Shown: positions 19,985 through 39,688 of the stretch, piece by piece
How the letters are laid out: every line of letters begins with the position of its first letter
Position numbering within the stretch: position 1 is the stretch's first letter
NCBI GenBank assembly: GCA_037446135.1
Contig: JBBIJD010000001.1
Location: forward strand, 27,156-91,155
Origin: Candidatus Fraserbacteria bacterium
GTDB taxonomy: Bacteria > Bipolaricaulota > Bipolaricaulia > RBG-16-55-9 > JANLFV01
Direction of reading: 5' to 3'
DNA: 64,000 bases
Program-made: the position numbers and the translations under genes
Notes under the pieces: model-generated
Seen by the model: the letters and a program-made list of their open reading frames with translations, nothing else
What the model was told of the DNA's origin: nothing
Database searches by the model: none

Positions 19985-20060
19985 GTGGCTTCGGCAGCCT
20001 GGCAGTCCGTGGAGGACCCACGGCTTTGCGCCCCCATGTCGCCATGGGTTCGCCTTTTCG
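19985..20060 (-). promoter_or_regulatory. GEMM-like (c-di-GMP-I class) riboswitch motif in the 5' UTR of paralog A
   Basis: RNA sense: AAGGCGAACCC-[CCCAUG GCGA CAUGGG]-GGCGCAAAGCC-[CCGUGG guccu CCACGG]...GGCUGCCGAAGCC. Shows the GEMM hallmarks GGCAAACC and GGRCGCAAAGCY around a P1 hairpin with a GNRA tetraloop, then P2. The same architecture occurs twice upstream of paralog C with compensatory changes in the P1 stem. Confidence 0.7.
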
Positions 20061-20075
20061 GTCCACTTAAACAAT

Positions 20076-20211: not shown

Positions 20212-20754
20212 TTACAGAGAGGTTGCGGTGTATTCCAGGGTGATGCTGTAATCTCCGGGGATGTCCTGTTCGTCCGAGGTATACTTGTAGGCCATATGGA
20301 AGTAGGCCGCGCCCGGCTTCTCCCCGGTCCCGGCCTTCATCATCTGATTGAATCCCGGGAAGCTGACATAGCTCCCCTGGTAGCCGCTGACATTCCCCTC
20401 GACTTTGGCGACCTTCCAGGCGAAGTCAGCGAGGATGTCCCCTTCAAAGCCCGGAGGGGTGGTAGCCTCGACGGCCTGGACGGCCAGGACATAGCCGTTA
20501 TGGCAGTTGGTCCTGAGGGAGACGATGTTCCCTTCGGTGTCCTCTAGGATCTGATCCGGCCCGGTGATCGTCCCCAGGAAGACATCCTGGTGGACATTGA
20601 GGGTGATCCAACAGTTGGCATTCCAGTAGACCGTGGTCTTCCCGCCGTCCCCGGCCCCGAGGGAGATCGTCCCCCAGAGGGCCGCGATCGCTAATGCCGC
20701 GAGGGTCGCTACCTTCAGGGTCTTTCCTATTCTCTTCATCGGTGTTACCTCCAT
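20212..20754 (-). CDS. Small secreted beta-rich protein, paralog B
   Basis: 180 aa. Signal peptide (MKRIGKTLKVATLAALAIAALWG). C-terminal PGDYSITLEYTATSL. No riboswitch upstream; instead an 11-bp-periodic TGGAAr repeat array. Confidence 0.8.
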   Translation of the reverse strand: MEVTPMKRIGKTLKVATLAALAIAALWGTISLGAGDGGKTTVYWNANCWITLNVHQDVFLGTITGPDQILEDTEGNIVSLRTNCHNGYVLAVQAVEATTPPGFEGDILADFAWKVAKVEGNVSGYQGSYVSFPGFNQMMKAGTGEKPGAAYFHMAYKYTSDEQDIPGDYSITLEYTATSL

Positions 20755-20825
20755 CTTCTCTTCCTAGGTCAGGTTTCTGACCTTTCGTCTCGCCTCGGAG
20801 TTTAAGTCACCCCCGCTGGAGGGTC

Positions 20826-20878
20826 GATGGAAGCGGGCTGAAAAGTCGGAGGAAAGCGGCTGGAAATTCCATGGAAAT
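20826..20878. promoter_or_regulatory. Array of five direct repeats (T/A)G(G/A)AA(A/G) at exact 11-bp spacing; candidate OmpR-family response-regulator binding site upstream of paralog B
   Basis: GATGGAAG cgg GCTGAAAAG tcg GAGGAAAG cgg CTGGAAAT tcc ATGGAAAT. Repeat cores start at 20828, 20839, 20850, 20861 and 20872. A related 4-repeat array lies at 22182-22220. Confidence 0.55.
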
Positions 20879-20895: not shown

Positions 20896-22158
20896 TTAGG
20901 GCTTCTTAGCAGGGAGGGCCCTGGCCCCTCCGAGCCGCTTTGCCCGGTAGAGGGCCCGGTCGGCCTGCTCGATCAGCTCGTCCGGCGAGGCCCCGTCCTC
21001 GGGGAAGCCGGCCACTCCGGCGCTGAAGCTGGCCCTGAAGGGCTCGGATTGCTCAGGGGCTTGGAACCGCTGCTCATGGAACTCCCCTTGGAGCCTGGTC
21101 AGGGCCGCCACGGCCCGGGGCTTGATGGTCTCGGGGAGGATGAGGGCGAACTCATCCCCGCCGTAGCGGGCGGGTAGGTCGCTCTTCCGTCCCTTGGACT
21201 TGATGAGCTCGGCCAGGGCCTTCAGGACGGAGTCGCCCATCCGATGGCCATAGCGGTCGTTGATCGCCTTGAACCGGTCGAGGTCGAGGAGGGCCAGGGA
21301 GAAGACCCTTCCATACCTTCTGCTCCGCTCGAGGGTGCAGCGGAGCTTCTCCTGGAAGGCCCGGTGGTTGTAGAGCCCGGTCAGGCCATCGAGGTCCGCC
21401 AGCTCGGTGAGCACCCGGTTCCGCTCGAGCCGGGCGGCGATCCGGGCGATCAGCTCCTCAGGGTAGAACGGCTTAGTGATGTAGTCGTCCGCCCCGGCCT
21501 CCAGGCCCCGGACCTTGGTCGCCACATCGCCCCTCCCGGTGAGGAAGAAGATCGGGAGCTTCTGGAACTCCACCTCCCGGCGGAGGGAGGCGCAGAGCTC
21601 CAGTCCGGTCAGCTTCGGCATCTCGATGTCCAGGAGCAAGAGGTCCGGCTTGAACTCCCTCAGGGTTGAGAGCGCCTCCGTCGGGTCTTGCAAGGCCTTG
21701 GTGGCGAACCCCGCTTGGCGGAGATGCCCCCCGACGAGCTCCAAGAGGTGAGGATCATCATCGACGATCGCGATCCTCAAGCGGTCGCCTCCTCCCTTTG
21801 GCTCTTGCTCAAGCTCGAACTTGAGCCCAAGCGCCGCTTCGGCCCGCTGGAGCTCCTCCTCCAGCTCGCGAAGGAGGGCCCGGAGCCTTCCCAGTTCCGG
21901 GGCGGCCAGCGGCCTGTTCTGAAGCTGGAGGGCCTCTTCCATCTCCTGAGCCAGCTCGGAGAGCCGAGGGTAGCCGTAGGAGCCGCCGCTCCCCTTGAGC
22001 CGATGGGCCCGCTCCAAGAGGGCCGCCATGGGGGCTTCAGCCTGAGGATCGGCCTCGAGGTCATTGAGCAACTGTCCGAAGAGGTTGAGGGCCCCGCGGA
22101 CCTCCTCGAGGTAGAGCCTTCGCAAGCCCTCCAATCCTTCTTCCATAGGTTCCACCAT
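20896..22158 (-). CDS. Hpt-REC-GGDEF signalling protein (diguanylate cyclase with receiver and N-terminal histidine phosphotransfer domain)
   Basis: 420 aa. Hpt HxxKG motif (ERAHRLKGSGGSYG). REC (IAIVDDDP...LLLDIEMP...DDYITKPF). GGDEF with intact active site RYGGDEF and a putative I-site (RRYGRV...). Confidence 0.9.
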   Translation of the reverse strand: MVEPMEEGLEGLRRLYLEEVRGALNLFGQLLNDLEADPQAEAPMAALLERAHRLKGSGGSYGYPRLSELAQEMEEALQLQNRPLAAPELGRLRALLRELEEELQRAEAALGLKFELEQEPKGGGDRLRIAIVDDDPHLLELVGGHLRQAGFATKALQDPTEALSTLREFKPDLLLLDIEMPKLTGLELCASLRREVEFQKLPIFFLTGRGDVATKVRGLEAGADDYITKPFYPEELIARIAARLERNRVLTELADLDGLTGLYNHRAFQEKLRCTLERSRRYGRVFSLALLDLDRFKAINDRYGHRMGDSVLKALAELIKSKGRKSDLPARYGGDEFALILPETIKPRAVAALTRLQGEFHEQRFQAPEQSEPFRASFSAGVAGFPEDGASPDELIEQADRALYRAKRLGGARALPAKKP

Positions 22159-22181
22159 TGGGAAGGATAAGGCCCTCAGGC

Positions 22182-22220
22182 TGGAATATCGATGGAAGTG
22201 GGCTGGAAATCTGATGGAAG
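22182..22220. promoter_or_regulatory. Four TGGAA(T/G/A) direct repeats at 11-bp spacing upstream of the Hpt-REC-GGDEF gene
   Basis: cTGGAAT atc gATGGAAG tgg gcTGGAAAT ctg ATGGAAG. TGGAA cores at 22182, 22193, 22204 and 22215, located 25-65 nt upstream of the GGDEF start codon and just after the RR stop. Confidence 0.5.
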
Positions 22221-22227
22221 CGGGGGG

Positions 22228-22905
22228 CTACCCCGCCAACTTATACCCGAACCCGCGGACGGTGAGGATCAGTTCGGGGTTCTGCGGGTCCCGCTCGATC
22301 CGCTTGCGGAGGAGGTAAATGTATTTTTGCACATCGCCGGGGCGGGCGAAGCTGCTCCCCGGCCAGAGATGGTCGATGATCTCCCGATCGGAGAAGACCC
22401 TCCCCCGCTCTGAAGCTAAGAGGAGCAGGAGCTCATACTCCTTGGGGGAGAGGCTCACCACCTCTCCTCGGACCTGGACGGTCTTGCTCTTATCGTCGAT
22501 GGTGAGCGGCCCGACCTCAATGAGCGCCTCTTTCGGGGCCGCCCCGGCCCGCCGGAGGACCGCCTCGATCCGGAGGGCCACCTCCATGAGGTCGAACGGC
22601 TTCCTGATATAGTCGTCGGCCCCGAGGGTGAACCCCTGGATCGTATCTATCGGCGAGTCCCGGGCGGTGAGCATCAGCACTGGGGTGGAGCTGCCTTCCC
22701 GGATCCGCCGGAGCACCTCCCAGCCATCCATCCCCGGGAGCATCACATCGAGGAGGACCAGGTCCGGCCGCTCCTTAGCGAAGGCCTCCAGGGCCTTTGG
22801 GCCGTCCTCGGCGGTGAGGACCTCATACCCGCGGGAGCTGAGGAAGGCTCGGAGGAGCCTCAAGATATCAGGGTCGTCATCGACGAGGAGGATCTTCTTA
22901 GCCAT
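22228..22905 (-). CDS. OmpR-family response regulator (REC + winged-helix)
   Basis: 225 aa. KILLVDDDP...LVLLDVMLPGMDGW...DDYIRKPF, plus trans_reg_C (LSPKEYELLLLLASERGRVFSDREIIDHLW...TVRGFGYKLA). About 60% identity by eye to the second RR at 39014. Confidence 0.95.
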   Translation of the reverse strand: MAKKILLVDDDPDILRLLRAFLSSRGYEVLTAEDGPKALEAFAKERPDLVLLDVMLPGMDGWEVLRRIREGSSTPVLMLTARDSPIDTIQGFTLGADDYIRKPFDLMEVALRIEAVLRRAGAAPKEALIEVGPLTIDDKSKTVQVRGEVVSLSPKEYELLLLLASERGRVFSDREIIDHLWPGSSFARPGDVQKYIYLLRKRIERDPQNPELILTVRGFGYKLAG

Positions 22906-25075
22906 CCTGATCAGTCAGTCCTCCGTCCAGCCCGAGCTTGAGCCAGCTCTTGGAGAGCGGGAGCCTGACGGTGAACTTCGTCCCCGCATTCGGCTTGCTC
23001 TCGACCCTGATCTCCCCGCCGTGACGGTCGATCGTGGCCTTGACGATCGCCAGCCCCAGGCCGGTCCCCGTGGCCTCCCGGACATAGGGGTTGGTGGAGC
23101 GGAAGAACCTGGTGAAGAGCCGGCCGAGCTCCTCCGCGTCCATCCCGATCCCGGTATCCGTGACCTCGACGATCGCCTCCCCGGCCACGGTGTCGGCCCG
23201 GGCCCGGAGGCTCACCTTCCCCTCCTTGGTGTATTTGATGGCATTGGAGAGGAGGTTGGCGAAGGCCCGAGCGAGGTAGTCGGCATCACCTTTGACCTGG
23301 AGCCCTTCCTCCAGCTCGACCTCCAGGGCCAATCCCTTCTCCCGGGCATTGACGGCGAAAGTGGCGGCCACATCCCTCAAGATTTCGTCGAGCGCGAGGT
23401 CCCTTAGCTCGATCTTCCGCTCCCCCGACTCGAGCCGCTCGATGTCCAGGAGGTCGTTGACCAGTTTGGTCAGGCGGTCGGCGTTCCGGGAGATAACCTG
23501 GAGGAACTCCTCCTGGGCCGGATTGAGGGGGCCGGTCTCCCCGGCCAAGAGGAGGTCGGCATACCCTTTGATCGAGGTGAGCGGGGTCCGAAGCTCATGG
23601 GAGACGGTGGCGAGGAACTCGGCCTTCAGTTGCTCCAGTCGCTTCTGAGCGGTGATATCCCGCATCATCCCTTGATAGCCCACCAGCCGCCCCGCGCTGT
23701 CCTTGATGGCCACACTGATCTCGTGGACCGTCCTCATTGAGCCGTCCTTGTGCTTATACGCTAGTTCCATGTCTACATAGCCGTCCCGCGCCAGTCGCCG
23801 GTGGAACTCCTCCCGCTGGGCCGGGTCGGCATAATTCTCGCAGAGGTCCATCCGGATCAGCTCCTCTTCCCTGTAGCCGAGAAGCTTCCTCACCGCCGGG
23901 TTGACATCGACGAGTCGGCCTTGAGAATCGCAGACATAGATCACATCGGCGCTATTCTCGAAGAGGTTGCGGTAGCGCTCCCCTGAGCGGCGGAGTTCCT
24001 CCTCAGCTTGCTCGCGTCTAGCAAGCATCTCATTGATCGAGCGAGCCAGGCTCGCCAGCTCATCGCCCCCTTTGGAGGGGAGGCGGGCCGAGAGGTCGCC
24101 GCTCGCCGTGACCCGGCGGACAGCCCGCTCGAGTCGGGCCAGCTTAGCCAGGACACCCCTCTCGAGCAGGAGGAGGGCGGTGGCCGTGAAGACCAGGCCG
24201 ATGGTAGAGAGGGCCAACATGAAGTAGTTCAAGCTCGCCAGCCCTTGGCTGTAGATGGTCCGCGGGAGGTCCACCCTCAAGATGAGGGCCGGCTGGCCGT
24301 AGATATCTCGGAGCAGGGCATAGCCGGCGACCCGCTCCCGGTCGAGCCGCTGGACAGGGAGCGTCGTCGCCCCTGTCCCCGCTAAGAGGGCCGTGCGGGC
24401 CGCGGCGAAGGCCGGGTCTTCTAGGGCTAGTCCTGGCTCATCAACTCGCCGGAATGCTAGTGAGAGGTCCGTCAACTCCGCCAGTTGAGCGACCTTAGCA
24501 GCATCGAGGTAGCGGCCCATGATGAGCGAGCCCCGGCTCGGGCCGGTCTTCTCGCTGGTGAGGATCGGCCTGGCGGCCAAGAGGAGTGGCCCCTCCGCTA
24601 GAAGGAGGAGCCCAGTCAGCCCCTCTTTGGGAGGCTCCTCGCGGGGCCGGAGGAGCGGGCTCTCAGGGGTGAGACTGTTCAAGAGGCCCTCTGGGACTGG
24701 CACCTCCCTTCTCTCCTGGAGGTCGAAGGCCTTGGCGAAGACGATCCTCCCCGAGGAGTGGACGAAGACCATCAAGTTCAAGCCGAGCTCGCTGAAGGTC
24801 TGATCGACGAGGTTGGAGCGGATATACTCCGGATTGGCGTCCTCGATGAAGGCATAGGTATCGTCCCAACCGGCCCAATCGCCGACGAGGGCGCTCAGCT
24901 TGGCCTGGTCATCGGCTAGCGCGTTCAGGGTTCGCTCGACCTCCCTTCGGGTGGCCTGCTCTTCCAGGGCCAGGAAGCCCCCGAGGAAGAGCGACCGGAG
25001 GACGAGATACATGATGGCTACTGAGCAGAGGAGCACTGAGCCGATAGTGATCAGCGTCTTCTTCCGTAGGGTCAT
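22898..25075 (-). CDS. Sensor histidine kinase with extracytoplasmic sensor domain, HAMP, PAS, HisKA and HATPase_c
   Basis: 725 aa. N-terminal TM segment, ~270-aa periplasmic region, a second TM, HAMP-like linker, PAS (DVIYVCDSQGRLVDVNPAV), H-box (ATVSHELRTPLTSI), and N/G boxes (LSNAIKYT, DTGIGM, GTGLGLAIV). Confidence 0.9.
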   Translation of the reverse strand: MTLRKKTLITIGSVLLCSVAIMYLVLRSLFLGGFLALEEQATRREVERTLNALADDQAKLSALVGDWAGWDDTYAFIEDANPEYIRSNLVDQTFSELGLNLMVFVHSSGRIVFAKAFDLQERREVPVPEGLLNSLTPESPLLRPREEPPKEGLTGLLLLAEGPLLLAARPILTSEKTGPSRGSLIMGRYLDAAKVAQLAELTDLSLAFRRVDEPGLALEDPAFAAARTALLAGTGATTLPVQRLDRERVAGYALLRDIYGQPALILRVDLPRTIYSQGLASLNYFMLALSTIGLVFTATALLLLERGVLAKLARLERAVRRVTASGDLSARLPSKGGDELASLARSINEMLARREQAEEELRRSGERYRNLFENSADVIYVCDSQGRLVDVNPAVRKLLGYREEELIRMDLCENYADPAQREEFHRRLARDGYVDMELAYKHKDGSMRTVHEISVAIKDSAGRLVGYQGMMRDITAQKRLEQLKAEFLATVSHELRTPLTSIKGYADLLLAGETGPLNPAQEEFLQVISRNADRLTKLVNDLLDIERLESGERKIELRDLALDEILRDVAATFAVNAREKGLALEVELEEGLQVKGDADYLARAFANLLSNAIKYTKEGKVSLRARADTVAGEAIVEVTDTGIGMDAEELGRLFTRFFRSTNPYVREATGTGLGLAIVKATIDRHGGEIRVESKPNAGTKFTVRLPLSKSWLKLGLDGGLTDQDG

Positions 25076-25710: not shown

Positions 25711-25790
25711 CTTCGGCAGCCCGGCGATCCCCGAGGGACCCGTAGCTTTGCGCCCCCACCTTGCGATGGGTTTGCCCTTATCGGGATGCG
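25711..25790 (-). promoter_or_regulatory. GEMM-like (c-di-GMP-I class) riboswitch motif, gene-proximal copy of a tandem pair
   Basis: RNA sense: AAGGGCAAACCC-[AUC GCAA GGU]-GGGGGCGCAAAGCUACGGG...GGGCUGCCGAAGG-AUG. The P1 stem CCCAUC/GGUGGG differs from the other copies (CCCGCC/GGCGGG and CCCAUG/CAUGGG) by compensatory changes, and all three loops are GNRA-type (GCAA, GAGA, GCGA). Confidence 0.7.
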
Positions 25791-25801
25791 TCCCTTCCTC
25801 G

Positions 25802-25905
25802 CCCTTCGGCAGCCCGGCTGCCCTTCACCTCCTTCCCCAATCAGCCAGTGTTAGGGCCCGTGGCTTTGCGCCCCCGCCTCTCGGCGGGTTTGCCCTTATC
25901 GGAGC
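25802..25905 (-). promoter_or_regulatory. GEMM-like (c-di-GMP-I class) riboswitch motif, distal copy of the tandem pair
   Basis: RNA sense: CCGAUAAGGGCAAACCC-[GCC GAGA GGC]-GGGGGCGCAAAGCCACGGGCCC...GGGCAGCCGGGCUGCCGAAGGG. Lies immediately downstream of the promoter at 25916-25945. Confidence 0.7.
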
Positions 25906-25915
25906 TCAGCGAAGG

Positions 25916-25945
25916 TATTATACACCGAGTGAGCGGGCTTGACAA
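25916..25945 (-). promoter_or_regulatory. Near-consensus sigma70 promoter (minus strand TTGTCA-17 nt-TATAAT) for the tandem riboswitch-paralog C transcript
   Basis: Minus-strand reading: ggcTTGTCAagcccgctcactcggtgTATAATacc. Overlaps the 3' end of the HD-GYP gene. Confidence 0.6.
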
Positions 25946-27471
25946 GCCCCTTCGGGCGGGGAAGGTCCTTTCGGGCTCAGATCCAGATTGTATCCCCTCT
26001 CGAAGAGCCGGAGGCAGGCCTCGCCAGCTTGGGGGTCGTAGAGCCGCCCCTTGTGCTTGGCGATCTCTCCCAAGGCCTCCTCGATGGCATGGGCCGGGCG
26101 GTAGGGCCGGTGAGAGGCCACCGCCTCCACCACATCGGCCACCGCTAGAATTCGGGCCTCGAGCATGATCTCTTCCCCCTTGAGCCCCCGGGGGTAGCCC
26201 GAGCCGTCGAGCCGCTCGTGGTGCTGGAGGACGATCTCAGCCACCGGCCAGGGGAAGTCGATCTGCCTCAAGACCTCATAGCCGGCCTGGGGATGGACCC
26301 GCACCAGCCCCAACTCGGCCGGATTGAGCCTCCCCGGCTTGCTCAGGATCTCCGCGGGGATATAGATCTTCCCGATGTCGTGGACCTGAGCGGCCATCCT
26401 GAGCCCGGCGATCCGGTCCTGAGGGAGGCCCATCTCCTGGGCGATCGCGCAGGCCAGCTCCGCCACCCGCCGCTGGTGCCCCGCGGTGTAGGGGTCCCGG
26501 ACCTCGACGGTGGTGGCGAGGACATCGACCATCTGCTCCAGGAGCCGCTCCAGCCGCTCATGACTCTCCCGGAGGGCCTCAAACAGCCGGAGGTTCTCCA
26601 AGGCCACAGCGGTGGCATTGGCCAAAGCCTCGAGGAGCTGGCAGTCCTCGGAGGTGAAGGCATTCAACTCCTGGCTCTCGGCGTTGAGGGCCCCGAGGAC
26701 CCGCTCCCCCGCCTTCAAGGGGACGCAGAGCTCAGAGCGGTTGGCGAACCGCCCCCCGACGAACCGTGGGTCCTTGGTCACATCCGGGAGGAGGATCATC
26801 TCCCCAGAGCGGGCCACGGCGGGGATGATCCCCCGCTCGCTAGCGAGGGGGAACTCCTCCGGGCCGGGGGGCCGTCCAAGAGTGTGGGCGACACAGATGA
26901 GCCGCTCGGCCTTCTCGTCCACTAGGAAGAGGCCGCAGTCCTCGAGCCCGAGGACCTCCCGGGCCGCCTCCACCGCCGCTTGGGCGATCTCCTCCTCGCT
27001 CCGGGAGAGGATCAACCTTCGGCCCAGGGCGTAGATCCCGGCCAGGCCCCGCTCGAGCCGCTTCCGCTCGGTGATGTCCCTCAGGATCGTCTGGAGGCCG
27101 ACGACCTTCCCCGCCTGCCTGATCGGGTTGCTCCGGTAGTCCGCGATCCTCGGCCCCTTGGGGGTGGTGAGCTCGATCTCCCCTTGGATCGGCTCCCCTC
27201 GGCTTATCCGGGCGAGCTCCTCGAGCAGCCGGGGATGGTAGCGCTCGGGGACGAACTCGAGCATATTCTTCCCGACCAGGTCCTCCTTGCGGAAGCCATA
27301 TTCTGCAGCGGCCCGGTTCACGGCCGTCACATTCCCTTCAAGGTCGAAGGTGACAATGACATCCCTAGCGTCCTCGAAGAGCTCGCGATAGGCCCCTTCC
27401 GCCCGCTCAAGCTCAGCCACCCGCAGCCGGAGCTGCTCGAGCTCTAACCCCTCTCGTGCCTCCGGTCTCAA
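25918..27471 (-). CDS. PAS-GAF-HD-GYP protein (c-di-GMP phosphodiesterase, HD-GYP class)
   Basis: 517 aa. HD motif (VHDIGKI) and HHERLDGSGYP (the GYP signature). N-terminal PAS and GAF regions. Confidence 0.9.
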   Translation of the reverse strand: MRPEAREGLELEQLRLRVAELERAEGAYRELFEDARDVIVTFDLEGNVTAVNRAAAEYGFRKEDLVGKNMLEFVPERYHPRLLEELARISRGEPIQGEIELTTPKGPRIADYRSNPIRQAGKVVGLQTILRDITERKRLERGLAGIYALGRRLILSRSEEEIAQAAVEAAREVLGLEDCGLFLVDEKAERLICVAHTLGRPPGPEEFPLASERGIIPAVARSGEMILLPDVTKDPRFVGGRFANRSELCVPLKAGERVLGALNAESQELNAFTSEDCQLLEALANATAVALENLRLFEALRESHERLERLLEQMVDVLATTVEVRDPYTAGHQRRVAELACAIAQEMGLPQDRIAGLRMAAQVHDIGKIYIPAEILSKPGRLNPAELGLVRVHPQAGYEVLRQIDFPWPVAEIVLQHHERLDGSGYPRGLKGEEIMLEARILAVADVVEAVASHRPYRPAHAIEEALGEIAKHKGRLYDPQAGEACLRLFERGYNLDLSPKGPSPPEGACQARSLGV

Positions 27472-37495: not shown

Positions 37496-37578
37496 TTTAG
37501 CACAATTGTAAGGGCCACAATTGGGGCTGTCAAGGGGCTTTGCCGGAGGGGCGCTATCTCTGTTAAACTTGAAAGAAG

Positions 37579-39033
37579 ATGAAGCGGCGGGGGTTCAGCC
37601 TGAGGTATAAGTTCGTCCTGACCTTGGTGGCCTTCACTTTCCTCCTCTCCGCCTCCTTCGGGGCCATCTCCCTCAAGCGGCTCTCCAGCGAGCTGGAGAG
37701 CCAGCTCCTCAAGGATGGGAGGGAGCTGGTGAACACCCTGGCTGAGCGGTTCGCCGACACTACGATCCCCTTCCTCACCTGGGCAGAGAACCTCCGCTTC
37801 CTCGCGGAGACCCTCGCGGTCTCGGGCGATGTGCTCTTCATCCAGGTCACGGTCGGCGGGCAGACCTACACCGCCCCAAGGCCGGGGCTGGAGGAGGTCC
37901 CCCCGCTCGAGGTGGGCCTCGCCACTGAGGGGGCGGCCAGGCGGAAGCTGGCCGATGGGGTGAGCTACCTCGATGTCTGGGAGAGCCTCCCTTCGCGGCT
38001 GGTGATGACTGATGAGGGGATCAAACCGGCCCGGGGCTATGTGCGGGTCGGGCTCTCGTTCGCCCGGGTCCGGAGCGAGATCCGCCAAGAGCTGGGGGTC
38101 ATCGCCCTCGTCTCGCTTTGCTATCTCTTGATCGGGATCCTCGTGGCCTTCATCTTCTACGAGATGATCCTCGGGCCGGTCGAGGAGCTATCCGCCTCAG
38201 TGAGGCGGTTCCGGGTCGATCGGCAGGCCCGGGCACCCGTCAAGGGGAGCGATGAGCTGGCCCTCCTCGCGGAGGAGTTCAACAAGATGGCCGAGGCGAT
38301 CGCCGAGCGGGACGCGCGGCTCAGCGAAGCCAACCGGGTGAAGTCCGAATTCCTGGCGATAATGGGGCACGAGCTTTTGACTCCGCTCCACGCGATCCGG
38401 GGGTTCTCCCAGCTCCTCCTTGAGGGGATCGAGGGGCCTCTGACCGCCAAGCAAAGGGAGGACATCGAGGCAATCCTTTCCTCGGGGAATCATCTTCTCG
38501 AGCTGATCGAGAACATCCTGAGGTTCTCCAAGCTCGAGGCGGGTGAGGAGCGGCTCCACCTTGAGGAGGTCGAGTCGACCGGGCTAGTGGCCGAGGTGGT
38601 CCAGAGCTTCGAGCGGTTCGCCCAGGAGCGCGGGCTCCGGCTGGAATCGCGGGTCGAGCCCTTCCTCCTCCAGGCCGATCGGACGAAGCTCCGCCAAGTC
38701 CTGATGAACCTGGTGAATAATGCGTTGAAGTATACCGAGCATGGGAGGATCGAGATCGAGGCCGCGATGGCGGACGGCCAGGCCTGCTTTACCGTCGCGG
38801 ACACGGGCCGGGGGATCCCACCAGAGTATCAGGCGAAGGTCTTCGAGCCCTTCACTCAGGTCGACTCTTCCGATCGGAGGGAAGCGATGGGGATCGGATT
38901 GGGGCTGGCGATCGTCAAGAAGTATGTCGAGCTCCATGGCGGGCGGGTCTGGCTGGAGAGCGAGCTAGGGAAGGGGACGAAGTTCCATTTCACCATCCCT
39001 CAGGGGGTAGGCCATGCGGATCTTGGTCGCTGA
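37579..39033 (+). CDS. Sensor histidine kinase (two TM segments, HAMP, HisKA, HATPase_c)
   Basis: 484 aa. H-box LAIMGHELLTPLHAI, N-box LVNNALKYT, G-boxes DTGRGI and GIGLGLAIV. Confidence 0.95.
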   Translation: MKRRGFSLRYKFVLTLVAFTFLLSASFGAISLKRLSSELESQLLKDGRELVNTLAERFADTTIPFLTWAENLRFLAETLAVSGDVLFIQVTVGGQTYTAPRPGLEEVPPLEVGLATEGAARRKLADGVSYLDVWESLPSRLVMTDEGIKPARGYVRVGLSFARVRSEIRQELGVIALVSLCYLLIGILVAFIFYEMILGPVEELSASVRRFRVDRQARAPVKGSDELALLAEEFNKMAEAIAERDARLSEANRVKSEFLAIMGHELLTPLHAIRGFSQLLLEGIEGPLTAKQREDIEAILSSGNHLLELIENILRFSKLEAGEERLHLEEVESTGLVAEVVQSFERFAQERGLRLESRVEPFLLQADRTKLRQVLMNLVNNALKYTEHGRIEIEAAMADGQACFTVADTGRGIPPEYQAKVFEPFTQVDSSDRREAMGIGLGLAIVKKYVELHGGRVWLESELGKGTKFHFTIPQGVGHADLGR

Positions 39034-39688
39034 GGACGATCCCTCCTCAAGGGAGCTCCTCCGCCGCTTCCTGGAGTCGAAGGGGCATGAGGTCCTCCAA
39101 GCCGCGAACGGCACGGAGGCCCTCGAGCGGTTCACGGCCAGCGGGGCCGACCTCATCCTCCTCGATGTGATGATGCCCAAGCTCGACGGTTGGACGGTCT
39201 TAAGGGAGATCCGGAAGGACTCCTCCGTCCCGGTGATCATGGTTACAGTGAAAGACGCCACAGAGGACAAGGTCCGGGGATTGGAGCTCGGAGCCGACGA
39301 CTATGTGACGAAGCCATTCGACCTCCGGGAACTGGAGGCCCGGATTGCAGCGGTGATGCGTCGGGTCGCCCCAGGCCCACTGATCGAGGTCGGGGAGCTT
39401 TCAATCGACGATGAGAAGAAGGAGGTCCGGCTCCGGGGGGAGCCGATCGAGCTCTCCCCCAAGGAGTATGATCTCCTGAGGCTGCTCGCCTCCAGGCCGG
39501 GGAAGGTCTTCTCCCACCGGGAGATCCTGGAGAAGATCTGGGCAGGGAGCGAGTTCGCCTCCTCTGAGGATGTCAAGAAATACATCTACCTACTGCGGAA
39601 TAAGATCGAGGAGGACCCGGAAGAGCCGAGGCTCATCCTGACTGTCCGCGGCTTCGGCTATAAGCTGGCGGTGGAGGCGAGGCCCTAG
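39014..39688 (+). CDS. OmpR-family response regulator
   Basis: 224 aa. RILVAEDDP...LILLDVMMPKLDGW...DDYVTKPF, plus winged-helix (LSPKEYDLLRLLASRPGKVFSHREILEKIW...TVRGFGYKLA). Paralog of the RR at 22228. Confidence 0.95.
   Translation: MRILVAEDDPSSRELLRRFLESKGHEVLQAANGTEALERFTASGADLILLDVMMPKLDGWTVLREIRKDSSVPVIMVTVKDATEDKVRGLELGADDYVTKPFDLRELEARIAAVMRRVAPGPLIEVGELSIDDEKKEVRLRGEPIELSPKEYDLLRLLASRPGKVFSHREILEKIWAGSEFASSEDVKKYIYLLRNKIEEDPEEPRLILTVRGFGYKLAVEARP

What the first reader, a model, noticed from the sequence alone, without database searches (positions are those of the whole stretch)
22182..22220. Second 11-bp-periodic TGGAAr array between the response-regulator stop and the Hpt-REC-GGDEF start: possible autoregulatory loop onto c-di-GMP synthesis
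cTGGAATatcgATGGAAGtgggcTGGAAATctgATGGAAG has TGGAA at 22182, 22193, 22204 and 22215. It lies 25-65 nt upstream of the GGDEF start codon, in the 70-nt gap after the RR gene. The same regulator that appears to control paralog B could gate expression of the diguanylate cyclase, giving a feed-forward link: signal, then RR, then both a structural subunit and the c-di-GMP that unlocks the riboswitch-controlled subunits.
Basis: inference. Interest (0 to 1): 0.65.

Follow-up and report, generated by a model that had tools for sequence, protein, structure and literature searches.

The report
Response-regulator promoter array before a c-di-GMP synthase
Four evenly spaced TTCCA repeats and a conserved -10 box between a two-component regulator gene and a c-di-GMP synthase gene look like an ordinary PhoB-style, regulator-activated internal promoter, found here in an uncultured Bipolaricaulota bacterium and conserved in its relatives.

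Summary
All the genes lie on the minus strand, where the motif reads yTTCCA: four 11-bp units at 22220-22177, forming two 22-bp units. No shuffle of the window reproduces this.

The repeats are followed by exactly 7 nt and then a TAnnnT hexamer (TATCCT, 22169-22164). The six-repeat array in front of paralog B has the same layout (20877-20812, then 7 nt, then TAAACT).

The layout recurs in loci that I retrieved by protein homology, not by motif:
- the RR→Hpt-REC-GGDEF gap in three other lineages, including one whose 4-fold sites are only about 50-56% identical but which keeps 19 of 20 core bases
- downstream of a related kinase gene in L215

It is absent from about 0.9 Mb of control loci.

My reading is a PhoB-like promoter in which the adjacent OmpR/PhoB-type regulator binds as tandem dimers over the -35 region. 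This would boost the cyclase gene and paralog B together. Binding, the transcription start and the sign of regulation are all inferred.

The real start codon is ATG 22146, not 22158. No autoregulatory loop is shown, and the riboswitch leg is plausible but untested.

This is a new member of a known kind, of modest interest.

The parts
22177..22220 (-). Array 2: four 11-bp direct repeats (CTTCCATCAGA, TTTCCAGCCCA, CTTCCATCGAT, ATTCCAGCCTG), forming two 22-bp units. Proposed binding sites for two head-to-tail RR dimers.
   Evidence: Conserved in L081, L084 and L218.
22164..22169 (-). Putative -10 hexamer TATCCT, 7 nt downstream of the last repeat. A weak -35-like TCGATA (22192-22187, 17-nt spacer) lies inside repeat 3.
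   Evidence: Read from the sequence. TATCCT or TATACT sits at the identical offset in L081, L084 and L218. The consensus promoter scan did not call it.
22151..22156 (-). Shine-Dalgarno-like GGTGGA serving the conserved start codon ATG 22146-22144.
   Evidence: P0001 is 416 aa, which corresponds to a start at 22146.
20896..22146 (-). Hpt-REC-GGDEF diguanylate cyclase gene. GGDEF motif, RxxD I-site, receiver Asp and Hpt His are all present. Proposed target of array 2.
22228..22905 (-). OmpR/PhoB-family response regulator (REC plus winged-helix Trans_reg_C, phospho-acceptor D53). Proposed binder of both arrays.
22898..25075 (-). CHASE4-HAMP-PAS-HisKA-HATPase histidine kinase. Its gene overlaps the RR gene by 8 nt. 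A sigma-70-like promoter (TTGAAT-17-TATTAT, 25142-25114) lies upstream.
20812..20877 (-). Array 1: six 11-bp repeats (three 22-bp units) upstream of paralog B.
20799..20804 (-). Putative -10 hexamer TAAACT of the paralog B promoter, 7 nt after the last repeat. This is the same offset as at array 2.
20212..20739 (-). Paralog B: a secreted beta-sandwich protein of about 175 aa, probably a TasA-like or donor-strand fibre subunit. It is the second target of the same motif.
25711..25903 (-). Two tandem c-di-GMP-I-type aptamers (best match is the GGC variant) upstream of paralog A (25709-25188).
19989..20063 (-). c-di-GMP-I-type aptamer upstream of paralog C (19958-19437).
   Evidence: The L084 counterpart scores best as RF01051.
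25918..27471 (-). PAS-GAF-HD-GYP protein, a likely c-di-GMP phosphodiesterase, at the head of the island.

Best explanation
Array 2 is the operator of an internal, regulator-dependent promoter for the Hpt-REC-GGDEF gene.

Proposed mechanism:
- Each 22-bp unit (TTCCATCnnn plus TTTCCAGCCnn) binds a head-to-tail dimer of the phosphorylated OmpR/PhoB-type regulator encoded immediately upstream.
- Two dimers cover the region from about -28 to -71 and take the place of a proper -35 element.
- RNA polymerase is recruited to the TATCCT -10 box 7 nt downstream.
- Transcription would start around 22157, giving a leader of about 11 nt that carries the GGTGGA ribosome-binding site for ATG 22146.

The same regulator uses a three-dimer version of the site to drive paralog B. 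A signal sensed by the CHASE4/PAS kinase would therefore raise a fibre subunit and a diguanylate cyclase together, and c-di-GMP would then act on the aptamer-controlled paralogs A and C.

Shown directly: the repeats, their significance, their conservation, the fixed offset to a -10-like hexamer, their co-occurrence with the RR gene, and the domain content of the genes.

Inferred: binding by this particular RR, activation rather than repression, the transcription start, and the riboswitch leg.
For: 1. The array is far beyond chance and has a 22-bp super-period.

2. The adjacent gene encodes an OmpR/PhoB-family winged-helix RR. PhoB, the best-studied member of that family, binds a 22-bp site made of two 11-bp direct repeats, each with a conserved 7-bp part and a variable 4-bp part (PMC3978041, PMC2648988).

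3. Array 2, array 1 and the L215 array all show repeats, then 7 nt, then TAnnnT. TAnnnT occurs at only 0.0034 per position in the window.

4. Phylogenetic footprint against L218, whose RR is 85% identical in protein: approximate 4-fold sites in the flanking genes are 50-56% identical, TTCCA cores are 19/20 identical, and spacer positions are 16/24 identical. P(>=19/20) is about 1e-4 at neutral identity 0.557. The stretch between the -10 and the start codon varies in sequence and in length.

5. The composite pattern occurs only in system-related loci, among about 1.04 Mb of the window plus protein-retrieved loci. A plain 3xTTCCA/11 array occurs only there and in L092 and L215.

6. The array directly follows the orthologous RR gene in the window, L081, L084 and L218, and in degenerate form in L217, where both the sensor kinase and the downstream gene differ.

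7. Relatives of paralog B that lack the HK-RR cassette (L213, L216) have no array. They carry tandem c-di-GMP aptamers instead.

8. The gap contains no terminator and no significant RNA structure and no Rfam match.
Against: - There are no experimental data of any kind. The transcription start, RR binding and the direction of regulation are all unverified.
- The consensus promoter scan did not call this promoter. TATCCT matches TATAAT at only 4 of 6 positions, and the promoter consensus of Bipolaricaulota is unknown.
- The predicted leader is very short, about 11 nt.
- A paralogous OmpR-type RR that is 59% identical, with a nearly identical recognition helix (DVxKYIYLLR), is encoded in the same window at 39014-39688. 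The helix sequence therefore cannot tell the two regulators apart.
- L092 has four perfect TTCCA/11 repeats upstream of an Hpt-REC-GGDEF homologue, but its neighbouring RR is only 42% identical and has a different recognition helix. The motif is therefore not exclusive to this RR lineage.
- The closest three lineages are similar enough that conservation of the flanks is also high, 86% overall. The footprint argument rests mainly on L218.
- Arrays 1 and 2 may share ancestry through duplication rather than being independent.
Confidence: 0.6

Rival explanations
1. The array is a genuine operator and promoter, but it is bound by a different OmpR/PhoB-family regulator, for example the paralogue at 39014-39688 or one encoded elsewhere in the genome. 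The adjacent RR would then control other genes.
For: The paralogous RR is 59% identical, shares the DVxKYIYLLR recognition helix and is widespread in Bipolaricaulota. L092 shows TTCCA/11 repeats next to an RR with a different helix.
Against: The array directly follows the orthologous RR gene in four lineages and in a fifth in degenerate form, even where the kinase type or the downstream gene differs. No array lies near the paralogous two-component system in the window. Loci without the HK-RR cassette lack arrays.
Confidence: 0.12
2. The adjacent RR does bind the array, but it acts as a repressor or roadblock. Occupancy over the -35 region, or inside the HK-RR-GGDEF transcript path, would lower cyclase expression. 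That is a negative link, not a feed-forward activation.
For: A weak -35-like TCGATA at a 17-nt spacing lies inside repeat 3 (read from the sequence), so RR binding could occlude it. There is no terminator between the RR and GGDEF genes, so read-through exists and could be blocked by bound protein.
Against: The geometry (tandem direct repeats ending 7 nt from the -10, with a poor -35) is that of PhoB-type activated promoters (plus my own knowledge of pho promoters). The same layout also drives paralog B, which has no other recognisable promoter.
Confidence: 0.15
3. The repeats are a neutral tandem duplication, a minisatellite or a chance pattern, and have no regulatory role.
For: 11-bp tandem repeats containing TTCCA are common in metagenomes as simple minisatellites.
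Against: The units are not identical: the cores are conserved and the spacers vary. The copy number is fixed at four across lineages whose 4-fold sites are only about 50-56% identical. There is a fixed offset to a -10-like hexamer. No shuffle reproduces the pattern.
Confidence: 0.03
4. The repeats act at the RNA level within a polycistronic HK-RR-GGDEF mRNA, for example as a protein-binding or structured element that controls translation of the cyclase.
For: The gap is short and has no terminator, so it is probably transcribed by read-through.
Against: The fold z-score is -0.98, which is not significant, and there is no Rfam family match. The same repeats precede paralog B and the L215 FIST gene, upstream of -10-like boxes where they would not be transcribed from the local promoter. 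On the mRNA the motif reads UUCCA, which lacks the GGA of CsrA-type sites.
Confidence: 0.04

Closest known systems
Pho boxes of PhoB-dependent promoters (E. coli pstS, ugpB)
   Same: A 22-bp site made of two 11-bp direct repeats, each with a conserved 5' part and a variable 3' part (PMC3978041, PMC2648988). Several boxes stand in tandem. The site occupies the -35 region a fixed short distance from the -10. The binder is a winged-helix OmpR/PhoB-family RR encoded in an HK-RR operon.
   Different: The core is TTCCA(T/G)C rather than CTGTCAT. The RR is not PhoB: it scores 183.7 bits on NCBIfam PhoB against a cut-off of 296.2. The targets are a diguanylate cyclase and a fibre subunit, not phosphate-uptake genes. 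Binding is not demonstrated.
CpxR box upstream of the diguanylate cyclase gene dgcZ (ydeH) in E. coli
   Same: An OmpR-family response regulator has a binding box in the regulatory region of a diguanylate cyclase gene, which links an envelope or surface signal to c-di-GMP synthesis (PMC13131220).
   Different: dgcZ is not part of the cpx operon. The CpxR box has a different sequence. There is no co-regulated fibre subunit and no riboswitch layer.
TorR tor boxes and OmpR F/C sites (own knowledge)
   Same: Arrays of four to six direct repeats with a period of about 10-11 bp, bound cooperatively by tandem RR dimers upstream of and overlapping the -35.
   Different: Different core sequences and different organisms. 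Those arrays sit in front of the target operon, not inside the regulator's own gene cluster.
c-di-GMP riboswitch-controlled pilin and adhesin genes of Firmicutes (own knowledge)
   Same: Surface-fibre subunit genes preceded by GEMM-I aptamers, sometimes in tandem.
   Different: Here one paralogue (B) carries an RR-type promoter array instead of the aptamers that its homologues have in L213 and L216. A cyclase gene under the same array lies in the same island.

Membership tests
OmpR/PhoB-family response-regulator operator (pho-box-like tandem array) | Direct (not inverted) repeats with a 10-11 bp period | tested here: met
   Four units at exactly 11-bp spacing, with 0 expected in shuffles. Tandem Repeats Finder reports periods of 22 and 11.
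OmpR/PhoB-family response-regulator operator (pho-box-like tandem array) | Each unit has a conserved core and a variable spacer, and the units pair into 22-bp dimer sites | tested here: met
   Against L218, cores are 19/20 conserved and spacers 16/24. TTCCAT and TTCCAG units alternate.
OmpR/PhoB-family response-regulator operator (pho-box-like tandem array) | The site overlaps or replaces the -35 at a fixed distance from a -10 hexamer | tested here: met
   7 nt followed by TAnnnT at array 2, array 1, L215 and L218, plus the degenerate L217. In L092 the hexamer is offset by 2 nt. The transcription start has not been mapped.
OmpR/PhoB-family response-regulator operator (pho-box-like tandem array) | A cognate winged-helix RR is encoded nearby | tested here: met
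   Response_reg plus Trans_reg_C protein at 22905-22228. The adjacency is conserved.
OmpR/PhoB-family response-regulator operator (pho-box-like tandem array) | Physical binding by the phosphorylated RR and RR-dependent transcription | not testable with these tools
   Requires EMSA or footprinting and reporter or transcript-mapping experiments.
Pho regulon proper (PhoB and the pho box) | CTGTCAT core and a PhoB orthologue | tested here: not met
   The core is TTCCA. The RR scores below the PhoB equivalog cut-offs.
Sigma-70-type promoter | -35 TTGACA and -10 TATAAT hexamers at 16-18 nt spacing | tested here: inconclusive
   The -10 TATCCT matches 4/6 and satisfies TAnnnT. The -35-like TCGATA matches 4/6 at a 17-nt spacing. 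The total of 8/12 is below the scan threshold, so the promoter was not called.
Intrinsic terminator or attenuator between the RR and GGDEF genes | GC-rich hairpin followed by a U tract | tested here: not met
   The scan found none in 22159-22240. The hairpin at 22237-22219 has no U tract and is not conserved in L218.
Structured cis-regulatory RNA (riboswitch or leader) | Rfam match or significantly stable, conserved fold | tested here: not met
   No Rfam hit in the gap. The fold z-score is -0.98.
Simple 11-bp minisatellite | Near-identical units with copy number varying among relatives | tested here: not met
   The units differ at spacer positions, and the copy number is four in all four lineages. 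The minisatellites found look different.

The most novel reading that the evidence does not exclude
The island is a self-contained two-tier relay for a TasA-like fibre in Bipolaricaulota. One kinase/regulator pair switches on fibre subunit B directly. Through a co-regulated Hpt-REC-GGDEF cyclase, which the same phosphorelay may also activate post-translationally, it raises c-di-GMP, and that opens the aptamer-gated subunits A and C. In this lineage the HK-RR-cyclase cassette and its TTCCA arrays have replaced the tandem c-di-GMP aptamers that control subunit B in relatives. That would be a documented swap of a riboswitch for a two-component promoter at one gene.
Probability: 0.3. Interest if true: 0.5.

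Novelty: new member of a known kind. Interest (0 to 1): 0.3.

Why it matters
If this reading is right, it gives a concrete and testable recognition motif, (T/C)TTCCA(T/G)C at an 11-bp period, for a response regulator of an uncultured phylum (Bipolaricaulota/Acetothermia). It also gives a promoter model for that phylum: repeats, then 7 nt, then TAnnnT.

It would also show how a two-component system, a diguanylate cyclase and c-di-GMP aptamers are wired together around a small family of probable fibre subunits.

The mechanism itself, tandem OmpR/PhoB-type boxes replacing a -35 element, is textbook. The value lies in annotation and circuit mapping, not in a new principle.

Tried and rejected
1. 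**Genome collection scan with the GGDEF protein.** It returned only distant homologues (38% identity or less) and no orthologous locus. I used those loci as about 0.8 Mb of negative-control sequence.

2. **Metagenome scan for 4xTTCCA/11.** None of those loci encodes any protein of this island (tblastn). The scan says nothing about the regulon.

3. **Contexts of more distant GGDEF homologues P0004 and P0006.** These are different neighbourhoods with no arrays.

4. **Exact look-up of the window's own protein.** It is not on record, so I could not retrieve the source contig. The phylum comes from the names attached to the 78-96% identical hits.

5. **Recognition-helix comparison to tie the motif to this RR.** This was uninformative. 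The paralogues share the helix, and the RR next to the L092 array does not.

6. **PWM scan for further sites in the window.** Nothing scored between 13 and 26 bits. The window therefore holds no third target, and there is no site upstream of the HK-RR operon.

7. **RNA-structure and terminator explanations.** Rejected.

8. **Rfam search on L217, L218 and L092.** No hits.

9. **Literature searches.** I found nothing on this system.

Full report
**Layout of the locus**

All relevant genes are on the minus strand. In order of transcription they are:
- a PAS-GAF-HD-GYP protein (27471-25918)
- two tandem c-di-GMP-I-type aptamers (25903-25711)
- paralog A (25709-25188)
- a CHASE4-HAMP-PAS histidine kinase (25075-22898), preceded by a sigma-70-like promoter
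- an OmpR/PhoB-family response regulator (22905-22228)
- the gap that holds the finding
- an Hpt-REC-GGDEF protein (22146-20896)
- a second repeat array
- paralog B (20739-20212)
- another aptamer (20063-19989)
- paralog C (19958-19437)
- two large surface proteins

The nearest database relatives are labelled Candidatus Bipolaricaulia.

**The observation**

In the direction of transcription the gap reads:

TAG CCCCCCG CTTCCATCAGA TTTCCAGCCCA CTTCCATCGAT ATTCCAGCCTG AGGGCCT TATCCT TCCCA ATG GTGGAACCT ATG

The three-unit pattern has 0.00 expected matches in 100 shuffles, and the two-unit pattern 0.06 against 4 observed. Tandem Repeats Finder reports a 22-bp period with 88% matches. The natural unit is therefore a pair of 11-mers, TTCCATC... 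followed by TTCCAGCC....

The ORF's first ATG (22158) is absent from orthologues. The conserved start is ATG 22146, behind GGTGGA, and the NCBI protein P0001 has the matching 416 residues.

**A second array with the same geometry**

Upstream of paralog B there are six 11-bp units (20877-20812), followed by GGTGACT and then TAAACT. At both arrays the last unit is followed by exactly 7 nt and a TAnnnT hexamer.

A PWM built from the five 22-bp units scores them at 26-31 bits. Nothing else in the 64-kb window exceeds 13 bits. The window therefore holds two targets, and there is no site upstream of the HK-RR operon.

**Comparative evidence**

I retrieved relatives by protein homology only.

The Hpt-REC-GGDEF orthologues at 80% and 78% identity (L081-L083 and L084-L087) have the same gene order. 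They keep both arrays and both hexamers, while the stretch between the -10 and the start codon changes in sequence and in length.

Those genomes are close (86% overall identity in the alignment), so the informative case is L218:
- Its RR is 85% identical in protein.
- Approximate 4-fold sites in the flanking genes are only 50-56% identical to the window.
- The gap reads CTTCCATGAGA TTTCCACCCCC TATCCATCGAC ATTCCAGCGGA GGAGCCT TATACT, followed by an Hpt-REC-GGDEF gene.
- Cores are 19/20 identical and spacer positions 16/24. P(>=19/20) is about 1e-4 at the neutral identity of 0.557.

In L218 the upstream sensor is a hybrid kinase plus a stand-alone receiver, not the CHASE4 kinase of the window. 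The RR-array-cyclase link therefore persists when the input changes.

Three further cases:
- **L217.** The RR is 78% identical and the kinase is of MEDS-PAS type. Six degenerate 11-bp units, then 7 nt, then TATTAT directly follow the RR stop codon, ahead of a different downstream region. This is a weaker example.
- **L215.** This locus was retrieved through a paralog B homologue. Its kinase core is 46% identical to the window kinase (E 7e-91). That kinase gene is followed by TTTCCATAGAA TTTCCATCTTC TTTCCATAGAT TTTCAAATCTC CCACGAG TAGGCT, then a Shine-Dalgarno sequence and a FIST-domain gene.
- **L092.** A 44%-identical Hpt-REC-GGDEF gene is preceded by four perfect TTCCA/11 units. However, the TAnnnT hexamer is 2 nt further away, and the neighbouring RR is only 42% identical with a different recognition helix.

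Controls:
- Across about 0.96 Mb of protein-retrieved loci, 3xTTCCA/11 arrays occur only in these system-related loci.
- The composite pattern (three units, then 7 nt, then TAnnnT) occurs only in the window, L081-L087, L215 and L218, out of about 1.04 Mb (those loci plus the window) scanned on both strands.
- Conversely, the B-type homologues in L213 and L216 lie next to an A-type gene with no HK-RR-cyclase cassette between them. They have no array and carry tandem c-di-GMP aptamers instead.

**Mechanism**

The adjacent regulator has a receiver domain and a Trans_reg_C winged helix. It scores below every NCBIfam equivalog cut-off, so it is an unnamed member of the OmpR/PhoB family.

For PhoB, the defined site is a 22-bp stretch made of two 11-bp direct repeats, each with a conserved 7-bp part and a variable 4-bp part (PMC3978041, PMC2648988). 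From my own knowledge, pho boxes replace the -35 element a fixed short distance from the -10, and they occur singly or as two or three in tandem.

Array 2 (two units) and array 1 (three units) match that description with a different core. I therefore read array 2 as the operator of an internal, RR~P-dependent promoter.

Two dimers would cover roughly -28 to -71. The -10 would be TATCCT (22169-22164). Transcription would start near 22157, with a leader of about 11 nt.

A weak -35-like TCGATA at a 17-nt spacing lies inside repeat 3. It could give basal activity, or it could be what the regulator occludes if the regulator is a repressor.

The gap has no terminator, so read-through from the HK-RR promoter probably also reaches the cyclase gene. 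RNA-level explanations are not supported: there is no Rfam hit and the fold z-score is -0.98.

**Limits of the evidence**

Nothing here shows binding, a transcription start or the sign of regulation. A 59%-identical paralogous RR with nearly the same recognition helix sits at 39014-39688. Assignment of the motif to the adjacent RR therefore rests on conserved adjacency alone.

The 'feed-forward' reading needs three further things to be true: the cyclase is active, the aptamers bind c-di-GMP, and the aptamers switch on with ligand. The catalytic motifs are intact. However, the aptamers score best as the GGC variant (RF03167), and in one orthologue as canonical RF01051. As far as I recall, the ligand of the variant has not been firmly established.

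No 'autoregulatory loop' is evident.

**Comparison with known systems and novelty**

The element works like a pho-box promoter. It is not a Pho regulon member, because both the core sequence and the RR fail that membership test.

Transcriptional control of a cyclase gene by an OmpR-family RR is known, for example the CpxR box at dgcZ (PMC13131220).

What is specific to this case:
- the motif itself
- its use for both a cyclase encoded inside the regulator's own cluster and a fibre subunit
- the apparent exchange between aptamer control and array control at paralog B

I found no literature on this system. I rate it a new member of a known kind, with interest 0.3.

Noticed in passing
[not shown]
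   Followed up: partly
L213 4899-5733 and L216 50-937, compared with window 20812-20877: In relatives that lack the HK-RR-GGDEF cassette, the A-type and B-type genes are adjacent and B is preceded by two c-di-GMP-I-type aptamers. In the window lineage the cassette lies between A and B, and B has the TTCCA array instead. This looks like a swap between riboswitch control and two-component control. The direction of the change is unknown.
   Followed up: partly
window 25711-25903 and 19989-20063 (minus): The aptamers score best as the c-di-GMP-I-GGC variant (RF03167; 76, 74 and 61 bits against a gathering score of 59). The orthologous aptamer in front of paralog C in L084 scores best as canonical c-di-GMP-I. 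Ligand specificity and on/off direction have not been checked.
   Followed up: no
window 37579-39688 (+): A second two-component system: a HAMP-HisKA kinase and an OmpR-type RR that is 59% identical to the RR of the finding and shares the DVxKYIYLLR recognition helix. It has no TTCCA array nearby. The upstream region (about 37500-37525) contains CACAATTG twice.
   Followed up: partly
window 22237-22219 (minus): A 7-bp GC hairpin (GGCGGGG-TAGCC-CCCCGCC-like) spans the RR stop codon. It has no U tract, is only partly conserved in L081 and L084, and is absent in L218.
   Followed up: partly
L092 3012-3055: Four perfect TTCCA/11 repeats upstream of a 44%-identical Hpt-REC-GGDEF gene. A divergently transcribed OmpR-type RR/HK pair lies next to it, and its RR has a canonical (different) recognition helix. 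The link between this motif and a GGDEF gene may extend beyond the RR lineage studied here.
   Followed up: partly
L096, L123, L185, L127, L211 (metagenome contigs, GC 0.6-0.7): GC-rich, probably prokaryotic contigs carry short arrays such as (A/G)TTCCATAGGA x4-6 or TTCCAGCACGA x4 at an 11-bp period. These may be operators of other regulators. Their gene context was not examined beyond finding no homologue of this island.
   Followed up: no
window 19371-15500 (minus): Downstream of paralog C lie a 337-aa protein with a dockerin-like C-terminus and a 926-aa SdrD-B/PKD surface protein. Both are conserved in L084 and may be accessory or anchoring parts of the fibre system.
   Followed up: no
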